Virus record (IMG/VR): IMGVR_UViG_3300045988_135277
Location: 1 to 33,569 of that record
DNA length: 33,569 nucleotides
DNA from: a virus
Taxonomy: Duplodnaviria > Heunggongvirae > Uroviricota > Caudoviricetes
Reading direction: 5' to 3' (one strand)
Position numbers and translations under genes: made by a program. Shown here piece by piece: positions 805 to 33,569 of this stretch (positions are counted from its first letter, which is position 1; each line of letters opens with the position of its first letter). Below the pieces are notes generated by a model. The model worked only from the letters and a program-made list of their open reading frames with translations, was not told the origin of the DNA and did not search any database.

Positions 805-1707
805 TTAAATTTCTGAGTACAACGCGATAGGTTCTATGAAAAACTCATTTTCTGTTGGTTTACAGAACGTTGACTCGATATTTGCTAATGCATCATTCAT
901 GTTCCATGCTGCACTTCGTATATCAATCATTGCTCTTTCTGAGTCTGTATTATTGATTGTATCTTTACCTGATTGCGTTACTATACCAACAATAGTAAAT
1001 TCTCTGGTCGTTTTTCTGGAGTATAGTTTCACTAACATTTCTGGCGTTAGCTTTAAAAATCCCCGAATTAAGAAAGATGTAAATTTGTAATCATTAATTT
1101 TTTGTGATATTTCAAGCTCATCTCCATAAGCATAATTTAAAACAATTGATAGGTTGTCAAAGAAAGCTTTTTTGTTTTTCATGGCACTTTCTTTTATTTG
1201 TTCTAATAAATTATCGCGAAGTATTTTTAAATCTTTTTTTACATTTGGCTTTGCTGTCTTATCAGAAATCAAGATGTCAATATTTTCTAATTCATCATGT
1301 TTGTGAACATAATGAATAGCATATCCAAGGTCAGTAAAATTTTTAGTGGTATCTTTTAGTTTTTTATAATCATTAATTTCAATAGCACATTTTATTTTTA
1401 CGAATTGTCCTGATTCAATCTCCTCTGGATAAAAATCCCCAGAGGAGATTGATTTGATGAGTCCTCTATGAAACAGTTCTTTTTCAAATTTCAAGTAATG
1501 GTAGTCATGCGGGTTTATAACAGTCGATAGCTTATTTGTATCACTAGTATTACTAGATTTTGTCTGCGTTTTGACCTCGACCGCATCAGAGTTTGATAGC
1601 GTTGATGCCTGCTCTTCTACGGCTGATTGAACAACTCCTTCGAATAACTGTGAACTGAGGGAGTAAACTTTTTCGTAATCAATGTAAATTATATTTTTTA
1701 ACGACAT
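805..1707 (-). CDS. hypothetical soluble protein, 300 aa (cargo in rexA/bstA slot)
   Basis: Long ORF on same strand as cI; conspicuously AT-rich; no family recognised by eye; followed by terminator. Confidence 0.8.
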   Translation of the reverse strand: MSLKNIIYIDYEKVYSLSSQLFEGVVQSAVEEQASTLSNSDAVEVKTQTKSSNTSDTNKLSTVINPHDYHYLKFEKELFHRGLIKSISSGDFYPEEIESGQFVKIKCAIEINDYKKLKDTTKNFTDLGYAIHYVHKHDELENIDILISDKTAKPNVKKDLKILRDNLLEQIKESAMKNKKAFFDNLSIVLNYAYGDELEISQKINDYKFTSFLIRGFLKLTPEMLVKLYSRKTTREFTIVGIVTQSGKDTINNTDSERAMIDIRSAAWNMNDALANIESTFCKPTENEFFIEPIALYSEI

Positions 1708-1718
1708 AGTAATACCTG

Positions 1719-1901
1719 TTATCGATATCTAAGTGCTTTTGCTTTCTCGGCAAAATGCTCACTATTTTTCTTTCTTATGTTTTCAATGGACGCTAGTGCG
1801 TCTTTATATTTTTTGAGGTTATTTCTTGAGAGAAATGCAAGATATACAGGAATGATAACTGTTATTATAAAGAGCAAGATCATTAAATAATACATAATCA
1901 C
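1719..1901 (-). CDS. small single-pass membrane protein (~58-60 aa)
   Basis: ORF track; N-terminal hydrophobic helix (YYLMILLFIITVIIPVYLAF) then charged tail; likely ATG start at 1895, 2 nt from stop of upstream gene, 11 nt before start of downstream gene. Confidence 0.5.
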   Translation of the reverse strand: MIMYYLMILLFIITVIIPVYLAFLSRNNLKKYKDALASIENIRKKNSEHFAEKAKALRYR

Positions 1902-2356
1902 TCCTTGGTTAAAATATCATTATTTATAATAGCACATTGAACGGAGTTTTGTCCAATATATAGCGATATTAAGCATGTAATTATTACTAGTATCTTGGTG
2001 AATGTTAAATCCAAAAGTTCCTCTGCCAACATGCTTATTATGTATATAGTAGAGAAAATCACTATAAAAATAATGGAGAAGGTTGTATTTACTATGAATT
2101 TATTTTCACTTTTGAAACTCGGTTTACCAATGCCAAAGTAAATGCTTGATATTTGTATGGCGAAACCAAAGCATACTAACTCAGTAATATTAAAAAGCTC
2201 AATGTCTTTTTTTATAATCATGAATGAAATCAATCTAATTATAATTGGGATCGCACCAACTATAACTGTCCCACACCACCACTTAAAATAATCAGCATGT
2301 ATATTTCCATTCATTGTAATGGCTTCCGTTTTTCCTATAAATATACGCTCATACAA
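1898..2356 (-). CDS. hypothetical integral membrane protein, ~4 TM segments (152 aa; possible later start at 2314)
   Basis: ORF track; four hydrophobic stretches; first gene downstream of cI on same strand; AT-rich. Confidence 0.7.
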   Translation of the reverse strand: MYERIFIGKTEAITMNGNIHADYFKWWCGTVIVGAIPIIIRLISFMIIKKDIELFNITELVCFGFAIQISSIYFGIGKPSFKSENKFIVNTTFSIIFIVIFSTIYIISMLAEELLDLTFTKILVIITCLISLYIGQNSVQCAIINNDILTKE

Positions 2357-2416: not shown

Positions 2417-3106
2417 CTACCCATGCTTCCTATACGTCTGCGGCATGCTTCCAATGACTTTCCCGAAGATAAACACCCGGTTCATCTCGTCTTTCTCGAT
2501 CGGGTCCCACGGTGAGTAGCTCTTGTTATCAGAGATGACCAGCAGCTTATCCTTCATCATTTGCAGGCGCTTTACATGGGCTGTGTCGTCGTACAGAAAC
2601 GCATAGATACCATCACCGTCGAAAGATTTAACTGTGATATCAACGAACAGCAGATCACCAGGTTCGATCGTTCCTGACATGCTGTCACCACGCACGTTAA
2701 TGATGCGGATATTTTCCGCCTTCCTACCATCGAACATGTGACGAGCATCGTCAAACGAGTACTCAACCGAGCGTAGAACTTCTACAAACTCACGGTTGAT
2801 GACTCCCGGCCCGGCACTGACTTCTATATCAAGAACGTCAATTTTGAAGTATTTGGAATGGCTGACAGTTGATTGTATTGGTTGCACTGTACTGTCTGAC
2901 ATATTTCCAACGCCAGAAGATAACCATTCTGCGCGCACACCCAAAGCGTTCGCGATCTCCACGATTTTAGTTGTTTGGTTAGCTTTCCCTGTTTCGATTT
3001 TCTGAATAGCAGCCTGGCTAACCCCGACCAAATCCCCAAGCGCCTTTTGTGTAAGGCCTCGCGCTAATCTGGCTTCTTTAAGTCTTTCTGAGAGTGTTGT
3101 TTTCAT
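2417..3106 (-). CDS. cI: CI-type prophage repressor (N-terminal HTH, C-terminal LexA/S24-like autocleavage domain)
   Basis: N-terminal HTH motif (LTQKALGDLVGVSQAAIQKIETGK), C-terminal GDSM serine and downstream Lys typical of S24 peptidase fold; divergent to cro across an operator-bearing intergenic region. Confidence 0.92.
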   Translation of the reverse strand: MKTTLSERLKEARLARGLTQKALGDLVGVSQAAIQKIETGKANQTTKIVEIANALGVRAEWLSSGVGNMSDSTVQPIQSTVSHSKYFKIDVLDIEVSAGPGVINREFVEVLRSVEYSFDDARHMFDGRKAENIRIINVRGDSMSGTIEPGDLLFVDITVKSFDGDGIYAFLYDDTAHVKRLQMMKDKLLVISDNKSYSPWDPIEKDEMNRVFIFGKVIGSMPQTYRKHG

Positions 3107-6311: not shown

Positions 6312-7814
6312 TTAAATTGCATCTGCAAACTCTGGGGTTTTTCGCTCAGGTATAATTGATGAGTTGTTGTTGTCACTTTTTTTATTTTCATGATTACGAA
6401 TAGCCAATGACTCATTAAAGTCTTTTGCGACTGCTGTCTCAATAAATTCAATTTCTGAATCAGAGTGTTTTTTAAGAGCTTCTTTGATCTCATCCAGAGT
6501 AACATAGAAAAACTCTTTTCTACGATTTACAAGATTGACTCTCTTTTTATCGAAGACATCATGTAGTTTTTTTTCTAATGATGGAGCGTCCTCCGAATAA
6601 ATCATAGCATGCACATCAAAAATAAATGGAACAGATGCATCACCGAGCTCATTTACACGGTCTTGCGGATCAAGACGTCGTGTCATGCCTATTTTATAAA
6701 CATTCTCCCCAAAAGAACCTATGTTCGAAATAATATAAACATGACCTTGTTTGGTTTGTTGTGCCATGGATAATGCTCTTTGATGCTTTGATTCAGCCTG
6801 CGACAAACTCTGTTCTAGTTCGGCAATGCGATTTTCGAGGCGTTGCTTCATGTCACCAGTAACTTTTTCCATTTCCTTTCTTGCAGCTTCAATTGCTTTT
6901 TTATAACGGCGCTCTTCTGCCTCTGCGTCTTGCATGGCCTTTTCTATTTCTCGTTGTGCACGCTCCTCCTCTCTCATTTGTGCCCTTATTTCTGCCTGTT
7001 CTTCTTTTTCTTTCTGTTTTTGCTCACGATATTCATGGGTAAGCCACAATTCCTCAAGTTTTTTATTGAGGTATTTAGTGTTTATATATATGTGATTTTG
7101 CTCGTTTAGTTTATTTATGGCCTCAAATGCCTTTGTGATGCGTTCTTCCATTTTAGTGATATTTTTCCACGTGCAATTGCTAATTGCAGCATCACATTCA
7201 TTATTAAATGCTCTAGTAGTTAACCTGATATTTCTGTCTGTCATTTTTTTACCCTCTGCTCGAGAGCCTTCAACAGTCCATTGGGTTGTACAATATACTG
7301 CGCCAGAGTGGGTTTTATCCCGCAGCATTAATTTCTGTTCATCCCTGATGGATTTTATTTTGTTTTTAAATTGCTCTGAATCTTCAAAATTAAAATGAGG
7401 TTCGTAAAATCCTAGCTCGGCTAGCTCAACATCTTCTGAATAAATAGAAATTTGCCTTACTAGTTTATCATATATTTCTTTCTTCTCTTTATAAGTTCTT
7501 CTTAGCTCTTGGATTTGTTTATTGATACCATCCATTTTTTCAATGGTGTTTGTTAGTTCATTATTGGCATTTTCTTTTGCTTTTTGGGATTCTTCTTTTA
7601 TTATGGAGCATTCTTGCTCTGTTTTCTCAATAAGCTTCTTACATTCTTCTTCTACATTAAAATAATCTGCAAAGCGAGATTTGTATTCTTCATTTTTTTG
7701 ATTGCTATCACTTAATTCTAATTGTATTTTTTTGATGCGTTTGATTGCAGCTATATAAAGAACAAGAACAACCAATAAAAATATGATTGCAAGTAATAGT
7801 GGAGTTTGAGTCAT
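6312..7814 (-). CDS. membrane-anchored coiled-coil protein with C-terminal T5orf172 (GIY-YIG-like) domain, 500 aa (DUF4041-like architecture)
   Basis: N-terminal TM helix (LLLAIIFLLVVLVLYIAAI), ~300 aa K/E-rich heptad-like region, C-terminal motif GHVYIISN...YKIGMTRR...PF...LH..F...R...EFF matching T5orf172 consensus; antisense, AT-rich, flanked by ~250 and ~425 bp noncoding DNA. Confidence 0.9.
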   Translation of the reverse strand: MTQTPLLLAIIFLLVVLVLYIAAIKRIKKIQLELSDSNQKNEEYKSRFADYFNVEEECKKLIEKTEQECSIIKEESQKAKENANNELTNTIEKMDGINKQIQELRRTYKEKKEIYDKLVRQISIYSEDVELAELGFYEPHFNFEDSEQFKNKIKSIRDEQKLMLRDKTHSGAVYCTTQWTVEGSRAEGKKMTDRNIRLTTRAFNNECDAAISNCTWKNITKMEERITKAFEAINKLNEQNHIYINTKYLNKKLEELWLTHEYREQKQKEKEEQAEIRAQMREEERAQREIEKAMQDAEAEERRYKKAIEAARKEMEKVTGDMKQRLENRIAELEQSLSQAESKHQRALSMAQQTKQGHVYIISNIGSFGENVYKIGMTRRLDPQDRVNELGDASVPFIFDVHAMIYSEDAPSLEKKLHDVFDKKRVNLVNRRKEFFYVTLDEIKEALKKHSDSEIEFIETAVAKDFNESLAIRNHENKKSDNNNSSIIPERKTPEFADAI

Positions 7815-16010: not shown

Positions 16011-17251
16011 TGTTCTTTTCGGGATTATTTCAACGAAAAAGTGACGCACCGGTGACCACGCCAGCAGAGCTGGTGGATGCTATCGGGCTGTCATACGACA
16101 CCTATACCGGAAAGCAGATCAGCAGCCAGAGGGCCATGCGACTGACGGCGGTTTTTTCCTGCGTCAGGGTGCTGGCGGAGTCGGTCGGGATGTTGCCCTG
16201 CAACCTGTATCACCTGAACGGCAGCCTGAAGCAGAGAGCCACTGGCGAACGTCTGCATAAGCTGATCTCCACGCATCCCAATGGCTATATGACGCCGCAG
16301 GAGTTCTGGGAGCTGGTGGCCACCTGTCTGTGCCTACGGGGAAACTTTTACGCCTACAAAGTGAAAGCATTTGGCGAAGTGGCTGAACTGCTGCCCGTCG
16401 ATCCCGGCTGTGTGGTACCGAAGCTTAACAGTAGCTGGGAGCCGGTCTATCAGGTCACATTCCCGGATGGCTCCACGGATGTACTGAGCCAGGAGGATAT
16501 CTGGCATGTGCGCACGCTGACGCTGGACGGACTGGTGGGGCTGAATCCCATCGCCTATGCCCGCGAGGCAATATCGCTGGCGGCAGCGACCGAAGAGCAC
16601 GGGGCCAGACTGTTCAGCAATGGCGCGGTGACGTCGGGTGTGTTGCGTACAGAGCAGACGCTGTCAGATCAGGCTTACGAGCGCCTGAAGAAAGATTTTG
16701 AGGAGCGTCACACCGGGCTTGGCAATGCTCACCGCCCGATGATCCTTGAGATGGGGCTGGACTGGAAGTCGATGGCGCTGAACGCCGAGGACAGCCAGTT
16801 CCTGGAAACCCGCAAGTTTCAACTTGAAGAAATCTGTCGTCTGTTCCGGGTACCGTTGCACATGGTGCAGAACACCGATCGCGCCACCTTCAACAATATC
16901 GAAGAACTGGGGCTCGGATTTATCAACTATTCACTGGTGCCGTATCTGACCCGCATTGAGCAGCGGATCAACACCGGACTGGTACGAAAAAGTAAGCAGG
17001 GTGTTTATTACGCCAAATTTAACGCCGGGGCGTTACTGCGCGGGGATATGAAGTCCCGTTTTGAAGCCTACGCCACCGGGATTAACTGGGGAATTTACTC
17101 TCCCAATGACTGCCGCGACCTGGAAGATATGAATCCGCGTCCCGGTGGTGATGTCTATCTCACACCGATGAACATGACCACGAAACCCTCCGATGGCAGT
17201 AAAGCCGGTAAGCAGAAGGATAACGCCAATGCAGACGAAACAACGTCTTGA
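16010..17251 (+). CDS. portal protein (HK97-type)
   Basis: 413-aa protein between terminase and prohead protease; GTG start with GGTGGAGG RBS. Confidence 0.9.
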   Translation: MFFSGLFQRKSDAPVTTPAELVDAIGLSYDTYTGKQISSQRAMRLTAVFSCVRVLAESVGMLPCNLYHLNGSLKQRATGERLHKLISTHPNGYMTPQEFWELVATCLCLRGNFYAYKVKAFGEVAELLPVDPGCVVPKLNSSWEPVYQVTFPDGSTDVLSQEDIWHVRTLTLDGLVGLNPIAYAREAISLAAATEEHGARLFSNGAVTSGVLRTEQTLSDQAYERLKKDFEERHTGLGNAHRPMILEMGLDWKSMALNAEDSQFLETRKFQLEEICRLFRVPLHMVQNTDRATFNNIEELGLGFINYSLVPYLTRIEQRINTGLVRKSKQGVYYAKFNAGALLRGDMKSRFEAYATGINWGIYSPNDCRDLEDMNPRPGGDVYLTPMNMTTKPSDGSKAGKQKDNANADETTS

Positions 17252-17879
17252 TGTACCGCTGAGTCTGAAATCTGTCAGTGACTCCGGTGAGTTTGAAGGG
17301 TATGGCTCCGTCTTTGGTGTAAAGGACAGCCACGATGATGTGGTGATGTCCGGGGCATTTGCTGCTTCCCTGCGGGCGTGGAGTGACAGAAAAGCGTTAC
17401 CTGCGCTGCTCTGGCAGCACCGCATGGATGAACCCATCGGTGTTTACACCGAAATGAAGGAAGACGATGTCGGGCTTTACGTCAGGGGACGGTTGCTTAT
17501 TGATGATGATCCCCTCGCAAAACGCGCACATGCACACATGAAGGCCGGTTCGTTAACCGGCCTTTCTATTGGGTACGTCCTGAAAGACTGGGAATACGAC
17601 CGGAGCAAAGAAGCCTTTCTGCTGAAAGAAATCGACCTCTGGGAAGTCAGCCTGGTGACGTTCCCGTCTAACGACGAGGCGCGGATCAGCGACGTCAAGA
17701 ACGCACTGGCCCGCGGGGAAATCCCCGAACAGAAAAAAATCGAAAGAGTCCTGCGTGATGTCGGACTCTCCCGTACCCAGGCCAAAGCATTCATGGCCGG
17801 GGGCTATGGCGCACTGTCCCTGCGCGACGCTGAGGATGTGGGCTCTGCACTGAATGCACTGAAAAATCTGAACTTCTAA
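17229..17879 (+). CDS. prohead protease (HK97 S78-type)
   Basis: Overlaps portal 3' end; conserved prohead-protease-like N-terminal region; ATG at 17229 preferred over track start 17193. Confidence 0.88.
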   Translation: MQTKQRLDVPLSLKSVSDSGEFEGYGSVFGVKDSHDDVVMSGAFAASLRAWSDRKALPALLWQHRMDEPIGVYTEMKEDDVGLYVRGRLLIDDDPLAKRAHAHMKAGSLTGLSIGYVLKDWEYDRSKEAFLLKEIDLWEVSLVTFPSNDEARISDVKNALARGEIPEQKKIERVLRDVGLSRTQAKAFMAGGYGALSLRDAEDVGSALNALKNLNF

Positions 17880-30442: not shown

Positions 30443-31369
30443 ATGCATCGTATAGACACGAAAACCGCGCAGAAGGATAAGTTCGGCGCGGGTAAGAACG
30501 GTTTTACCCGTGGTAACCCCCAGACCGGCACGCCTGCCACCGATCTGGATGATGACTACTTTGACATGTTGCAGGAGGAGCTCTGCAGCGTGGTGGAGGC
30601 ATCCGGTGCCAGCCTGGAGAAGGGGCGGCATGACCAGCTGCTTACCGCGCTTCGTGCGCTGCTGTTAAGTCGCAAAAATCCGTTTGGCGATATCAAATCG
30701 GACGGCACGGTGAAAACGGCTCTTCAAAACCTTGGTTTGGGAGATACAAGCGGATACGTGGGACGCCGGCTGAGTACCCGGGCTTTCGCGTCATCAGGTA
30801 CGTATACCCCATCACCAGAAACAAAACGGATCAGGGTCACAATAACGGGCGGCGGTGGCGGAGGGGGTGGCTGCCAGGCTATATCCAGTAACGAAACGTT
30901 TTTCGGTGCTGGCGGTGGGGCCGGAGGGACAGTAATCACCATACTGACCCCGACACAGAATAGTTATCCTGTCACTATCGGCGCAGGTGGGGCCGGCGGC
31001 GTTGGTGCGACGAACGGCCTCAAGGGCGGTTCATGCTCGTTCGGATCGGTAATAGCCCCTGGTGGTGAAGGCGGCGGAAAAGTAGGAGTCACAAACACAA
31101 ACGGCGGTAACGGAGGCGTACCGAATATTGGCGATATCCGCATCACTGGTGGAGATGGAGGCGACGGTCAGTCCGGGAATATCAGCGTCAGCGGTGAAGG
31201 CGGTGCATCGTACTGGGGAGGCGGTGGACGTGCAGGCGCTGGCGGTGGCGTTAGAGGCAGGGCATTTGGTTCAGGCGGAGGTGGTGCATACGATGCAGGT
31301 TATAGCGGAACCAGTATGACGGGCGGGAAAGGTGCTGATGGGGTTTGTATTATCGAGGAGTTTGCATAA
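30443..31369 (+). CDS. tail fibre protein with glycine-rich C-terminal half
   Basis: Conserved fibre-like N-terminus followed by long GGxGG-type repeats; followed by Tfa. Confidence 0.8.
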
Positions 31370-31779
31370 TGAATGCGTCATATGCAGTTATTGAAAATGG
31401 GATGGTTGTGAATGTCATTGTCTGGGATGGCGAGGATGAATTCACTGTGCCGGATAATCTGCAGCTCATTAATATTTCTGATATCAGTGAGCAGCCCGGA
31501 ATCGGCTGGGCGTATTCAGACGGGGTATTTACTGCGCCGCTCCCTCCGGAACGTTCTCATGATGAACTGGTAGCTGACGCTGAACAGAAAAAACAGTCGT
31601 TGATAGACGCAGCAATGGTCAATATCAGCGTGATTCAGTTAAAGCTGCAGGCCGGGCGCAAACTGACGCAAGAAGAAACTACCCGACTTAACGTTGTGCT
31701 GGATTATATCGACGCTGTGACGGCAACAGATACCAGCACCGCACCGGATGTCATCTGGCCTGAACTGCCGGAGGAGTAG
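31369..31779 (+). CDS. tail fibre assembly protein (Tfa)
   Basis: Typical Tfa N-terminus ([21 protein letters not shown]); ATG overlaps fibre stop. Confidence 0.85.
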   Translation: MNASYAVIENGMVVNVIVWDGEDEFTVPDNLQLINISDISEQPGIGWAYSDGVFTAPLPPERSHDELVADAEQKKQSLIDAAMVNISVIQLKLQAGRKLTQEETTRLNVVLDYIDAVTATDTSTAPDVIWPELPEE

Positions 31780-31938
31780 GCCATTCAATATCTGGCGCAC
31801 TGGAGGTATCAACCAGCTCCAGTGCATCCAGATAATCCAGCCACAGATTAAACTGCACTTTTCATCATCAGACAATCGTCCAGGCGCGAGCCTGGATGCT
31901 GGCATCTCTGCCCAATTTAAATTTGAGAGGTAATTATG

Positions 31939-32493
31939 TTAACAGTTAATCCACCAGTATGTGCCGGGTGCCTGCGGGTAAGTGGCGGCGGCAACCTCGT
32001 GAACCATCCCCCAATCCAGAGCTGTAGAGGCATTGGCTATGGTGGCGGCGGAGATAACCTCCTTCCACTCATTGCGGCTCTTACTGAGCTCAATCTGACT
32101 CTCCAAAATATCGACAAAACGCTCCAGGTCATTATTGAGACACGCGCTCCACTCACTGACGCGTGAGTGATCCACGCTTGGGCCCATCAAGCCCCAGTGA
32201 AAAGGATGCAGTAAGAACCGACTCCCAGGATTCGCCTTACGTTCAGACCCTGCAAGAAAAATGATATTAGCGACTGATTCAACATTGCTAAGGTTATGGG
32301 TCTTTACTGGGATTGGTAGGGCCTTTAGAAAGTGATAAGCAGTAAAACCTGCAACGAGGTCACCGCCCGGACTGGAAATGTAAATGTTTAACTCAGTCGC
32401 CCCCTGATTGATAGCTCCAAGGCAATTGCTAATTAAAGCGTTAACGGTGGACTGATTTACGGGCACCGTGAAATTTATAGTATGCAGCATCAC
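31939..32493 (-). CDS. ClpP-fold (S14-like) serine peptidase family protein, 184 aa
   Basis: Strong AAGGAG RBS; alignable by eye to ClpP core: NIYISSPGGDLVAGFTAYHFLK vs ClpP [23 protein letters not shown]; Ser in ...VESVANIIFLAG at the ClpP catalytic-Ser register; His in LLHPF vs MIHQP. Confidence 0.7.
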   Translation of the reverse strand: MMLHTINFTVPVNQSTVNALISNCLGAINQGATELNIYISSPGGDLVAGFTAYHFLKALPIPVKTHNLSNVESVANIIFLAGSERKANPGSRFLLHPFHWGLMGPSVDHSRVSEWSACLNNDLERFVDILESQIELSKSRNEWKEVISAATIANASTALDWGMVHEVAAATYPQAPGTYWWINC

Positions 32494-32602
32494 TATCTCC
32501 TTGTTTAGTTAGTGGACACATTACCCTGGGAGCAATAAAAAACATAACGCATACTGCATGCTTAGTTGGTGACCGGCGATCTAAGTTTAGCAAGGATGCA
32601 TA

Positions 32603-33001
32603 TCTGAAGGCGATACGCTGGTGGTCTGAAAGCGTGACCGCCTCGGTCGCAGCATGCGACATCTTGTTGGGTTAGTGGAGGAACTGCGGGAGAAAGGTGT
32701 TAACTTCCGGAGCCTGACGGATAGCATCGATACGAGTACGCCTATGGGGCGCTTCTTCTTTCATGTGATGGGTGCCCTGGCTGAAATGGAACGAGAACTG
32801 ATTGTTGAACGAACAAAAGCTGGCCTGGAAGCTGCTCGCGCACAGGGACGAATTGGTGGACGACGTCCCAAACTTACACCAGAACAATGGGCACAGGCCG
32901 GACGATTAATTGCATCAGGAGTTCCTCGCCAGAAGGTGGCGATCATCTATGATATTGGCATATCGACTTTGTATAAGAGGTTTCCGGTCGGAGATAAATG
33001 A
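32603..33001 (+). pseudogene. pin: pin/gin/cin-type serine DNA invertase, 5'-truncated with in-frame TGA
   Basis: C-terminal ~115 aa match Pin/Gin (RSLTDSIDTSTPMGRFFFHVMGALAEMERELIVERT...); upstream in-frame remnant GDTLVV*KRDRLGRS has a stop where Pin has Trp; similarity disappears upstream of ~32600, so the catalytic-Ser N-terminus is absent. Confidence 0.8.
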
Positions 33002-33312
33002 AACCGTAGCACGTCGTATGCAAGAACGTGCTACGACTGGCTGGTGAACTTCCGATAGTGCGAGTATTGAATGATTTCCAACTGTTATCGATTTTGCGTA
33101 TTTTTTGCATGAGAGGATTTTTACCTCCTCCCACCGATCCTCCATGGCTTTACGCCAGTGTCTCTGGTCTGCTATGTGCCAGATGCGGACTTTGCAAAAA
33201 GTACGGTTCGTTAATCATTATGGTGGAGGCGACGTAATCTGTCTCATAATTTCCTAGTATTGCTTAACTCACTGAAAACGTTTATATTGTCATTGCGAAC
33301 TATCGTTTGATT

Positions 33313-33569
33313 GGTGATGCTGCCAACTTACTGATTTAGTGTATGATGGTCTTTTTGAGGTGCTCCAGTGGCTTCTGTTTCTATCAGCTGTCCCTCCTGT
33401 TCAGCTACTGACGGGGTGGTGCGTAACGGCAAAAGCACTGCCGGACATCAGCGCTATCTCTGCTCTCACTGCCGTAAAACATGGCAACTGCAGTTCACTT
33501 ACACCGCTTCTCAACCCGGTACGCACCAGAAAATCATTGATATGGCCATGAATGGCGTTGGATGCCGGG
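33313..33569 (+). mobile_element. IS1 insertion sequence, left end (element continues beyond window)
   Basis: IS1 left inverted repeat GGTGATGCTGCCAACTTACTGATTTAGTGTATGATGG at 33313 followed by insA. Confidence 0.9.
33368..33569 (+). CDS. insA: IS1 InsA (partial, 3' end outside window)
   Basis: GTG start; translation [67 protein letters not shown] matches IS1 InsA. Confidence 0.88.

What the first reader, a model, noticed from the sequence alone, without database searches (positions are those of the whole stretch)
31780..32653. Stand-alone ClpP-fold peptidase gene on the antisense strand inside the tail-fibre/invertase locus
Seen: ORF 31939..32493 (minus) has a strong AAGGAG RBS and aligns by eye to the ClpP core (SPGG motif, Ser at the catalytic register in ...VESVANIIFLAG, His in LLHPF, acidic residue in the C-terminal ASTALDWGMVHEV segment). 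Established: ClpP-family (S14) proteases in phages normally act as prohead proteases inside the head module, and this phage already has an S78-type prohead protease at 17229..17879. In pin-type systems the DNA between Tfa and the invertase normally holds inverted alternative fibre/tfa segments. Inference: the invertible segment has been replaced by a protease-like cargo gene, which could be a defence or exclusion factor or act in fibre processing.
Basis: partly seen in the sequence, partly recalled or inferred. Interest (0 to 1): 0.6.

Follow-up and report, generated by a model that had tools for sequence, protein, structure and literature searches.

The report
Prophage cargo gene: truncated ClpP peptidase
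A real, well-conserved gene for a shortened ClpP-type protease has been dropped as stand-alone cargo into this prophage's tail-fibre inversion switch, wrecking the switch. Its closest studied relative is a Pseudomonas ClpP paralogue that teams up with the normal ClpP, but its role for the phage is untested.

Summary
The ORF is real: 31939..32490 on the minus strand, 183 aa, ATG at 32490, AAGGAG 6 nt upstream. It is a ClpP-fold protein (Pfam CLP_protease 50.5 bits; AF2 pLDDT 93). Ser72 and His95 align with ClpP Ser97 and His122 and are invariant in 60 close homologues.

The protein also lacks the first 24 residues of mature ClpP, which hold the axial loops. Its closest solved relative is PpClpP1 of Pseudomonas plecoglossicida (9UXT; E 4e-38, TM 0.92). 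PpClpP1 is a weak Ser-His peptidase that forms tetradecamers, does not bind ClpX, and boosts ClpXP through mixed complexes with the canonical ClpP.

The 742-bp cassette (31859..32600) replaced most of the inverted tfa'/fibre' segment, the right crossover site and about 50 codons of the invertase. The fibre switch is dead.

Relatives are solitary genes at many different positions in Mu-like, P2-like, lambdoid and P22-like prophages. In P22-like phages the gene sits in the mnt operon. It is under strong purifying selection (dN/dS about 0.08).

It is not a prohead or fibre protease. A lysogen-expressed modulator of host Clp proteolysis is the best inference, but this is untested. RefSeq already annotates it as ClpP. 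Interest is moderate.

The parts
31939..32490 (-). CDS of the truncated ClpP-family Ser-His peptidase (183 aa; stop codon 31939..31941 included; ATG 32488..32490).
   Evidence: ORF list and sequence. Pfam CLP_protease 50.5 bits. AF2 pLDDT 93. Foldseek TM 0.92 to 9UXT. phmmer E 4e-38 to 9UXT. RefSeq WP_016244976.1. dN/dS about 0.08.
32497..32502 (-). Shine-Dalgarno AAGGAG, 6 nt upstream of the ATG.
   Evidence: Read from the sequence. Conserved in the Enterobacter and E. coli 100416 copies.
31859..32600 (.). Inserted cargo cassette (742 bp): the stretch with no homology to intact tfa-tfa'-fibre'-invertase modules.
   Evidence: blastn against phage 500465-2 and the T22 P2-like phage. Homology stops at 31856-31858 and resumes at 32601-32607. 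The cassette is present in 26 of 5426 complete E. coli genomes.
31751..31858 (-). Remnant of the inverted alternative tail-fibre assembly gene tfa' (last 36 codons only: KVQFNLWLDYLDALELVDTSSAPDIEWPTPPAVQAR*).
   Evidence: Translation. RefSeq pseudogene annotation in L001. Homology to the tfa' 3' end of L049/L050. Inverted repeat I2 with tfa.
31345..31779 (+). Expressed-orientation tail-fibre assembly gene tfa (probable ATG at 31369).
   Evidence: Pfam Caudo_TAP 76 bits. ORF list.
30443..31369 (+). Tail-fibre gene (glycine-rich C-terminal part), frozen in one orientation.
   Evidence: Pfam Gly_rich_2 49.6 bits. ORF list.
30720..30745 (.). Surviving left crossover site of the inversion system (CTCTTCAAAACCTTGGTTTGGGAGAT, core AAACCTTGGTTT), inside the fibre gene. 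No partner site remains.
   Evidence: Only exact match to AAACCNNGGTTT in the window. Sequence. No matching inverted partner found. Assignment as a gix/pix-type site rests on my knowledge of the Hin/Gin/Cin/Pin consensus.
32601..33001 (+). Serine invertase pseudogene. The N-terminal ~50 codons (including the catalytic Ser region) are deleted, and three in-frame stops lie before the residual ORF 32654..33001.
   Evidence: Translation. Pfam Resolvase profile positions 79-144 only, plus HTH_7. RefSeq flags 'internal stop; missing N-terminus'.
33313..33569 (+). Left end of an IS1 element that interrupts the prophage's right arm. Related prophages have dinI, int and then dusA here.
   Evidence: Sequence. 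RefSeq annotation of the identical locus L001, compared with the uninterrupted L002.

Best explanation
Shown. The gene encodes an intact, selectively maintained, N-terminally truncated ClpP-family peptidase of the PpClpP1 type. It has Ser72 and His95 in the catalytic register and Ala at the Asp171 position. It starts at residue 25 of mature E. coli ClpP, so it has no axial loops. Six of the eight residues of the ATPase-docking pocket are replaced. It is a single-gene cargo cassette of about 740 bp. Its insertion deleted most of the inverted tfa'/fibre' segment, the right crossover site and the 5' end of the invertase. This fixed the tail fibre in one form. It is neither the prohead protease nor a fibre-linked gene, because relatives sit as solitary genes at many unrelated positions in Mu-like, P2-like, lambdoid and P22-like prophages.

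Inferred from the characterised homologue PpClpP1. The protein assembles into ClpP-like heptameric rings that cannot dock ClpX or ClpA themselves. It has weak peptidase activity that depends on the Ser and His. Most likely it stacks on a ring of the host's canonical ClpP to form mixed tetradecamers, and this changes the output of host ClpXP/ClpAP proteolysis.

Inferred from context. It is expressed from the prophage independently of the late operon. In P22-like phages it is the second gene of the mnt (lysogeny maintenance) operon. It probably benefits the lysogen or prophage, either by interfering with superinfecting phages or by tuning Clp-dependent regulators. Which of these applies is unknown.
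For: Identity:
- Pfam 50.5 bits; AF2 pLDDT 93.
- 9UXT is the top hit by sequence (E 4e-38) and by fold (TM 0.92, rmsd 1.9).
- Ser and His are invariant and position 149 is never acidic.
- The protein starts at ClpP residue 25, and pocket residues change as Y60N, F82A, I90H, F112K, L114N, L189A.

Function retained:
- dN/dS is about 0.08 against the 90%-identical E. coli 100416 copy. dN is 0.12 with saturated dS against the Enterobacter copy.
- The cassette is 99.6-99.9% identical in 25 E. coli genomes, and all copies are annotated as intact CDS.

Cargo behaviour:
- Klebsiella and Leclercia: between Rz/LysC and terminase.
- Enterobacter P2-like: between tfa(G) and gpU, the slot where phage 500465-2 has its inversion module.
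- Proteus: between N and erf.
- Chromobacterium: between fibre and lysis genes.
- Pantoea: between tape measure and the DNA-circularisation protein.
- E. coli 100416: between the fibre gene and a dinI preceded by a dinI-type LexA-box-like sequence (my reading of the sequence).
- P22-like phiv205-1 and lambda-like PhiR12_1: overlapping the stop of an Mnt-like ribbon-helix-helix gene that is divergent from arc-ant.
- Leclercia phages carry a separate 284-aa ClpP-type prohead protease as well. The window phage has an S78 protease.

Switch destruction.

Biochemistry of the homologue (homotetradecamer, 13-fold lower activity, S73A/H96A inactive, no ClpX binding, more active heterotetradecamer with canonical ClpP): PMC12900304.

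The same prophage carries a validated defence gene (PD-Lambda-1, 656 bits) in another antisense cargo slot.
Against: - No experiment or computation here shows that this protein binds E. coli ClpP. Identity to PpClpP1 is only 40-50%. PpClpP1 is a chromosomal gene in pseudomonads, not phage cargo, so its physiology may not transfer.
- No convincing sigma-70 promoter was found in the 110 bp upstream of the ORF. Timing of expression in this prophage is therefore unknown.
- In the Enterobacter P2-like prophage the gene is co-oriented with the tail genes FI-U. Late expression cannot be excluded there.
- There is no match to any PADLOC defence model, and no paper linking such a gene to phage defence or lysogeny was found.
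- The list of ClpP docking-pocket residues comes from my memory of the ClpP literature.
Confidence: 0.5

Rival explanations
1. A self-contained, ATPase-independent open-pore peptidase. The protein works alone as a homotetradecamer with a wide ungated pore, as seen for PpClpP1 (42.7 A). It degrades unfolded or extended polypeptides without any unfoldase. Candidate substrates are ejected proteins of incoming phages, nascent chains or peptides.
For: PpClpP1 forms homotetradecamers with a dilated pore and has measurable peptidase activity on its own (PMC12900304). The window protein likewise lacks the N-terminal gate. It lacks the docking pocket, so action independent of ClpX/ClpA is structurally plausible.
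Against: Homotetramer activity of the homologue is low, 13-fold below canonical ClpP, and rises in the mixed complex. E. coli always supplies canonical ClpP, so mixed rings are likely if the interfaces are compatible. No substrate is known.
Confidence: 0.2
2. A poison or decoy subunit. The phage ring caps host ClpP rings and lowers ClpXP/ClpAP capacity, because one face can no longer dock an ATPase. This would stabilise Clp substrates such as antitoxins or phage regulators, acting as an anti-defence or lysogeny-control device.
For: There is no axial loop and no conserved docking pocket. The homologue does not bind ClpX. Phage inhibitors of host proteases are known (T4 PinA against Lon, lambda cIII against FtsH; my background knowledge).
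Against: In the only tested homologue the mixed complex increases, not decreases, peptidase activity and ClpX-dependent degradation. The catalytic Ser and His are invariant across the family. A pure decoy would not need them.
Confidence: 0.1
3. A virion-maturation protease: either a second prohead protease or a protease that processes the tail fibre or Tfa. The fibre option is the first reader's alternative.
For: The best PHROG match is phrog_94, 'head maturation protease' (99 bits). NCBIfam Clp_rel_HeadMat is the top NCBIfam hit (50.4 bits). The gene lies next to tfa in the window and in the Enterobacter prophage.
Against: - The NCBIfam score is far below its cutoff of 120.
- The phage has a complete portal, S78 protease and capsid head module.
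- Leclercia phages carry both a true 284-aa ClpP-type prohead protease in the head module and this 179-aa gene elsewhere, and the two share only a 37-residue BLAST match.
- Most homologues are far from fibre genes, and most are transcribed against the structural operons.
- The gene is absent from 99.5% of complete E. coli genomes searched (26 of 5426 carry the cassette).
Confidence: 0.03
4. A non-functional relic carried along in a decaying prophage.
For: The surrounding locus is degraded: dead invertase, tfa' stump and IS1 insertion. No promoter was detected.
Against: The ORF is intact with a consensus RBS. dN/dS is about 0.08. Full-length homologues with invariant Ser/His occur in dozens of 90% clusters across Enterobacterales and in sequenced, viable temperate phages.
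Confidence: 0.03

Closest known systems
PpClpP1 of Pseudomonas plecoglossicida (PDB 9UXT; PMC12900304)
   Same: Same length (183 aa) and the same N-terminal truncation. The catalytic Ser and His are in the same register (S73/H96 against S72/H95) and the third triad position is non-acidic. It is the best hit by sequence (E 4e-38) and by fold (TM 0.92). Shared biochemistry is expected: tetradecamer, weak peptidase, no ClpX docking, partnership with canonical ClpP.
   Different: - Identity is 40-50%.
- The third position is Ala, not Pro.
- PpClpP1-type genes are chromosomal in pseudomonads, conserved next to an MFS transporter.
- This gene and all sampled Enterobacterales and Chromobacterium relatives are prophage cargo.
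- Partnership with E. coli ClpP is untested.
Two-paralogue ClpP systems (P. aeruginosa ClpP1/ClpP2, Listeria ClpP1/ClpP2, Mycobacterium ClpP1P2)
   Same: A second ClpP isoform depends on, or works best in, a ring-ring heterocomplex with the main ClpP, and only one face docks the ATPase (background knowledge; PMC12900304 discussion). Listeria ClpP1 also lacks the Asp (it has Asn).
   Different: Those paralogues are full-length cellular genes that keep their N-terminal regions, and most have complete triads. Here the second isoform is supplied by a mobile prophage and is truncated.
ClpP-related phage head maturation proteases (NCBIfam NF045542; phrog_94)
   Same: ClpP fold without the cellular N-terminal gate, phage-encoded, similar core length.
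   Different: The score is below the family cutoff (50.4 against 120). There is no C-terminal scaffold-like extension. The gene lies outside head modules and coexists with genuine prohead proteases.
Prophage morons at variable cargo positions (P22 sieA next to mnt; P2 Z/fun after gene G; lambda bor after Rz)
   Same: A single gene with its own translation signals, at variable positions next to tail-fibre, lysis or immunity genes. Contexts include the mnt-adjacent position of P22-like phages and the post-tfa slot of P2-like phages. The comparison with sieA, Z/fun and bor is from my background knowledge.
   Different: Those genes encode membrane or unrelated proteins with demonstrated exclusion phenotypes. 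No phenotype is known for the ClpP-like gene, and it matches no PADLOC model.
Gin/Pin/Cin/Hin tail-fibre inversion switches (Mu G segment, e14 P segment, P1 C segment)
   Same: The locus has the constant fibre part with a crossover site, tfa, a tfa' remnant and a Pin-like recombinase remnant. The intact architecture is seen in phages 500465-2 and T22-P2.
   Different: Only one crossover site is left, the alternative fibre segment is gone, and the invertase lacks its catalytic N-terminus and carries stops. The switch is a fossil.

Membership tests
ClpP / peptidase S14 (Pfam PF00574) | Profile match above the curated threshold | tested here: met
   50.5 bits against a gathering score of 20.2, covering residues 5-168 and profile positions 19-180 of 182.
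ClpP / peptidase S14 (Pfam PF00574) | ClpP alpha/beta fold with handle helix | tested here: met
   AF2 pLDDT 93.1. Foldseek TM 0.81-0.84 to S. aureus, T. thermophilus and Listeria ClpP, and 0.92 to 9UXT.
ClpP / peptidase S14 (Pfam PF00574) | Catalytic Ser97 and His122 (E. coli mature numbering) | tested here: met
   Ser72 and His95 align to them. They are invariant in 60/60 close and 125/126 distant homologues.
ClpP / peptidase S14 (Pfam PF00574) | Catalytic Asp171 | tested here: not met
   Ala149 occupies the position. None of 60 close homologues is acidic there. In PpClpP1 the equivalent Pro is dispensable for activity.
ClpP / peptidase S14 (Pfam PF00574) | N-terminal axial loops that gate the pore and contact the ATPase | tested here: not met
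   Residue 1 aligns with residue 25 of mature E. coli ClpP.
ClpP / peptidase S14 (Pfam PF00574) | Hydrophobic pocket for the IGF/LGF loops of ClpX/ClpA (Y60, Y62, F82, I90, M92, F112, L114, L189; list from memory) | tested here: not met
   Six of eight positions are polar or small: N35, A57, H65, K85, N87, A167. Only Y37 and L67 are retained.
ClpP / peptidase S14 (Pfam PF00574) | Assembly into stacked heptameric rings | not testable with these tools
   Shown by cryo-EM and AUC for the homologue PpClpP1 only.
PpClpP1-type short ClpP | About 183 aa, N-terminally truncated, Ser-His with a non-acidic third residue, clear sequence and fold similarity to 9UXT | tested here: met
   E 4e-38 over residues 3-169. 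TM 0.92 over 183 columns. Ala at the Pro position.
PpClpP1-type short ClpP | Forms a heterotetradecamer with the canonical ClpP and does not bind ClpX | not testable with these tools
This needs pull-down, AUC or cryo-EM.
ClpP-related phage head maturation protease (NF045542) | Score above the NCBIfam cutoff and a position in the head module between portal and capsid | tested here: not met
   50.4 bits against a cutoff of 120. The gene lies 12 kb downstream of the head module, which has its own S78 protease.
Known anti-phage defence systems (PADLOC-DB v2) | Match to any defence or candidate-defence protein model | tested here: not met
   0 families at E <= 1. As a positive control, the prophage's ORF 6312..7814 hits PD-Lambda-1 at 656 bits.
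Gin/Pin-type invertible tail-fibre switch | Two inverted crossover sites, alternative fibre/tfa segments and an intact serine invertase | tested here: not met
   There is one site only, at 30720..30745. The tfa' is reduced to 36 codons. The invertase lacks its N-terminus and has three in-frame stops.

The most novel reading that the evidence does not exclude
Temperate phages of Enterobacterales spread a truncated ClpP ring as a single-gene moron. The ring docks onto the host's own ClpP and re-programmes ClpXP/ClpAP proteolysis in the lysogen. This would give superinfection immunity or abortive defence, or would lock in lysogeny. It would be a new class of prophage-encoded host-protease hijacker that no defence catalogue currently lists.
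Probability: 0.2. Interest if true: 0.7.

Novelty: new member of a known kind. Interest (0 to 1): 0.4.

Why it matters
ClpXP and ClpAP control many phage-relevant proteins: lambda O, Mu repressor and transposase, antitoxins such as Phd and MazE, RpoS, and SOS factors. This list is my background knowledge.

A mobile, phage-borne ClpP isoform that can pair with host ClpP would let a prophage retune this proteolysis with one small gene. The family is already biochemically tractable because a homologue has a cryo-EM structure, activity assays and an inhibitor. The hypothesis is therefore directly testable in E. coli.

The locus also gives a clean example of cargo insertion destroying a tail-fibre host-range switch. 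In addition, the "divergent ClpP paralogue" recently proposed as a drug target in a fish pathogen belongs to a family that is mobile on prophages in enteric bacteria.

If the gene turns out to have no phenotype, it is simply one more annotated ClpP-like moron.

Tried and rejected
- PADLOC scan of the protein gave no hit.
- The promoter and terminator scan of 31700..33100 found no sigma-70-like site upstream of the ORF on the minus strand. Reading the 110 bp by eye found only weak hexamers. Expression signals remain unresolved.
- A LexA-box search in the window found nothing near the gene. By eye, a dinI-type LexA-box-like sequence sits upstream of the dinI that precedes the gene in E. coli 100416. 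In the window that region is replaced and interrupted by IS1.
- The genome-contig scan with the family alignment returned only 6 close loci. The other 26 hits were distant matches (28-50% identity over the best segment), many in Patescibacteria and Bacteroidota assemblies, and I did not examine them.
- I tested whether PpClpP1 is itself prophage-borne and rejected this. No Pseudomonas phage carries it. In P. entomophila and Stutzerimonas it lies among ordinary chromosomal genes.
- I considered an origin from the co-resident ClpP-type prohead protease and could not support it. Pairwise BLAST shows only a 37-residue match. The strong phrog_94 hit may reflect short members of that cluster annotated by transfer, for example in phiv205-1.
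- Literature searches found no description of this kind of gene. The searches covered prophage- or phage-encoded ClpP, ClpP-like defence, P2 hotspots and serine-recombinase-linked defence.
- Fibre-processing, second prohead protease and relic readings were rejected on context and selection (see rivals).
Full report

The ORF listing gives 31939..32493 on the minus strand, with a GTG start. The sequence reads AAGGAG-ATAGTG-ATG, so the ATG at 32490 has a consensus Shine-Dalgarno 6 nt upstream. Homologues begin MLHT, and RefSeq calls the same 552-nt CDS (WP_016244976.1, "ATP-dependent Clp protease proteolytic subunit") in identical E. coli loci. The protein is therefore 183 aa.

- Pfam CLP_protease matches at 50.5 bits against a cutoff of 20.2, nearly end to end.
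- An AlphaFold2 model built on 22 homologues has mean pLDDT 93.1 and pTM 0.88.
- The model superposes on solved ClpPs with TM 0.81-0.84, and on PDB 9UXT with TM 0.92.

The ClpP fold is not a chance resemblance.

**2. The catalytic residues**

I aligned 186 family members together with E. coli ClpP.

- Ser72 falls on ClpP Ser97 and His95 on His122. Both are invariant in 60/60 close homologues and in 125/126 distant ones.
- The residue at Asp171 is Ala149 (SAATI). In close homologues it is Ala, Ser, Gly, Thr or Met, and never Asp or Glu.

The protein begins at residue 25 of mature ClpP, so it lacks the axial loops. Six of the eight residues I recall as forming the ClpX/ClpA docking pocket are polar or small.

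**3. The closest characterised relative**

phmmer against PDB sequences gives one outstanding hit, 9UXT (E 4e-38). The next best hits are ordinary ClpPs at about 1e-9. 9UXT is ClpP1 of Pseudomonas plecoglossicida (PMC12900304). The paper reports the following:

- It is 183 aa, N-terminally truncated, with a "Ser73-His96-Pro" triad.
- It forms a homotetradecamer with a 42.7 A pore.
- Its peptidase activity is 13-fold lower than that of the canonical paralogue.
- S73A and H96A are inactive, while mutating the Pro costs only about 40% of activity.
- It does not bind ClpX.
- It forms a stable heterotetradecamer with the canonical ClpP. That complex is more active and enhances ClpX-dependent degradation.

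The window protein shares every sequence-level hallmark, except that Ala replaces Pro.

**4. What happened to the locus**

Intact relatives (phage 500465-2 and a P2-like phage from strain T22) have this order: fibre, tfa(+), tfa'(-), alternative fibre C-terminus(-), invertase(+).

- Homology between the window and these modules runs to 31856-31858 and resumes at 32601-32607.
- What is left of tfa' is its last 36 codons.
- The invertase reading frame upstream of the residual ORF 32654..33001 has three in-frame stops. It lacks about 50 N-terminal codons, including the catalytic serine region. Pfam matches only Resolvase profile positions 79-144 plus the HTH.
- One crossover site with the palindromic core AAACCTTGGTTT survives inside the fibre gene at 30720..30745. 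No partner exists.

A 742-bp cassette (31859..32600) carrying only the ClpP-like gene has therefore replaced the variable half of the switch and killed the recombinase.

In uninterrupted relatives the prophage ends with dinI, int and then dusA. In the window an IS1 starts at 33313.

**5. Cargo behaviour of the family**

The cassette occurs in only 26 of 5426 complete E. coli genomes.

A 5.8-billion-protein search finds 63 clusters of roughly 180-aa homologues in Escherichia, Enterobacter, Citrobacter, Klebsiella, Pantoea, Erwinia, Rahnella, Serratia, Leclercia, Proteus and Chromobacterium. An exhaustive phmmer against 1.84 billion representatives finds 6 at E <= 1e-30 and 640 at E <= 1e-10. 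Most of the 150 best hits listed are 180-200 aa and match from their first few residues.

Every context I sampled in these taxa is a prophage or phage, and the neighbours differ each time:

| Host or phage | Position of the gene |
|---|---|
| Klebsiella, Leclercia | between Rz/LysC and the small terminase |
| Enterobacter P2-like (83% identical) | between tfa (G) and gpU, the slot where phage 500465-2 has its inversion module |
| Proteus | between N and erf/ssb |
| Chromobacterium | between fibre and lysis genes |
| Pantoea | between tape measure and the DNA-circularisation protein |
| Enterobacterales MAG | within a baseplate module |
| Erwinia | next to a Rha-family regulator |
| Metagenomic lambdoid contig | next to an HTH repressor-like gene |
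| E. coli 100416 | between the fibre gene and a dinI preceded by a dinI-type LexA-box-like sequence (my reading) |

In P22-like phiv205-1 and lambda-like PhiR12_1 the gene overlaps by one base the stop codon of an 82-aa Arc/Mnt-family gene. That gene is divergent from arc-ant, which is the P22 immI layout. In P22, mnt is expressed in lysogens and sieA lies beside it (my background knowledge). This is the best available hint that the ClpP-like gene is a lysogen-expressed moron.

DNA homology between the window and Enterobacter copies is confined to the ORF plus RBS (31936..32502). Homology with the E. coli 100416 copy spans 31903..32552. The mobile unit is essentially the gene alone.

**6. It is a working gene**

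Against the 90%-identical E. coli 100416 copy, dN is 0.04 and dS is 0.54, giving a ratio of about 0.08. Against the Enterobacter copy, dN is 0.12 with saturated dS.

**7. What it is not**

- **Not the prohead protease.** The window has portal, S78 protease (110 bits) and capsid in a row. The NCBIfam head-maturation model scores 50.4 against a cutoff of 120. Leclercia phages carry both a 284-aa ClpP-type prohead protease in the head module and this short gene elsewhere, with almost no pairwise similarity.
- **Not tied to fibres.** See the contexts above.
- **Not a listed defence protein.** PADLOC gives nothing. The same prophage does carry PD-Lambda-1 at 6312..7814 on the antisense strand (656 bits), which shows that it collects defence cargo.

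**8. Mechanism**

What is shown is the fold, the Ser-His pair, the missing gate and docking pocket, the purifying selection and the cargo distribution.

What is inferred from PpClpP1 is that the protein forms heptameric rings with weak peptidase activity. Most likely these rings pair with a ring of host ClpP, so that the mixed particle docks ClpX/ClpA on one face only and has altered output.

What is inferred from context is expression independent of the late genes and a benefit to the lysogen, either exclusion of other phages or tuning of Clp-controlled regulators.

I could not detect a convincing promoter upstream. In the Enterobacter prophage the gene is co-oriented with tail genes. Timing therefore remains open.

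Rivals are a stand-alone open-pore peptidase (0.2), a poison subunit that lowers Clp capacity (0.1), a virion-maturation protease (0.03) and a relic (0.03).

**9. Relation to known families and novelty**

The PpClpP1-type gene is widespread and chromosomal in pseudomonads. There are 207 clusters at E <= 1e-30. It is conserved next to an MFS transporter in P. entomophila and Stutzerimonas, and no Pseudomonas phage carries it. The enterobacterial branch, at 40-50% identity, is phage-borne.

I found no paper describing this. The gene itself is already annotated as ClpP in RefSeq and belongs to a family with a solved structure. I therefore file it as a new member of a known kind, with an undescribed prophage-cargo lifestyle.

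Interest is moderate (0.4). The mechanism is directly testable in E. coli, and Clp proteolysis is central to several phage life cycles. However, no phenotype is known and the protein class is not new.

Noticed in passing
window 6312..7814 (-): A 500-aa ORF antisense to the early genes is a full-length match to the validated single-gene defence PD-Lambda-1 (PADLOC 656 bits; Pfam DUF4041 + T5orf172/MUG113). The prophage therefore carries at least one known anti-phage gene in a separate cargo slot.
   Followed up: partly
window 805..1707 (-) and 1898..2356 (-): A 300-aa DUF6414 protein and a 152-aa ORF lie at the left end, on the minus strand next to a 229-aa HTH repressor-like gene (2417..3106). 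Neither has a PADLOC match. They may be further cargo of unknown function.
   Followed up: partly
window 32601..33001 (+) and 30720..30745: The Pin-like invertase is a pseudogene (N-terminus deleted, three in-frame stops). Only the left crossover site, inside the fibre gene, survives. The tail-fibre host-range switch is frozen in one orientation.
   Followed up: yes
window 33313..33569: An IS1 left end runs off the window. In the identical E. coli AH04 locus it is followed by IS66-family genes and a different integrase. The uninterrupted relative (CX12) has dinI, int and dusA here. Window bases 33107..33312 match neither.
   Followed up: partly
L051 3753..4537 (phage phiv205-1) and L052 (phage PhiR12_1): A two-gene unit, Mnt-like RHH repressor plus ClpP-like gene with a 1-nt overlap, lies divergent from arc-ant. 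In lambda-like PhiR12_1 this whole immI-like block, including the antirepressor, sits between tail-tip genes L and K.
   Followed up: partly
L058-L061 (P. entomophila, Stutzerimonas) and L054: The PpClpP1-type short ClpP, recently proposed as a drug target, is an ordinary chromosomal gene in pseudomonads. It is next to an MFS transporter, and next to tig on one short metagenomic contig. Its enterobacterial relatives are all prophage-borne. The direction of transfer is unknown.
   Followed up: partly
L053 5743..6060 (E. coli 100416): In this second E. coli context the ClpP-like gene lies 155 bp downstream of a dinI gene. The dinI is preceded by a dinI-type LexA-box-like sequence (CTGTATATCCAACCAG), and by eye no obvious hairpin followed by a T-run lies between the two genes. 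SOS-driven read-through is possible there.
   Followed up: no
L003-L006 (Klebsiella, protein P0040): The Klebsiella homologue is annotated as 238 aa. Its first ~52 residues align with nothing in the family, so the true start is probably the internal MIHTVHF.
   Followed up: no
PDB 9UXT / PMC12900304: By my count on the deposited chain sequence, the proline at the third triad position is residue 150, not 151 as numbered in the paper. Ser73 and His96 agree. This is a minor numbering discrepancy.
   Followed up: no
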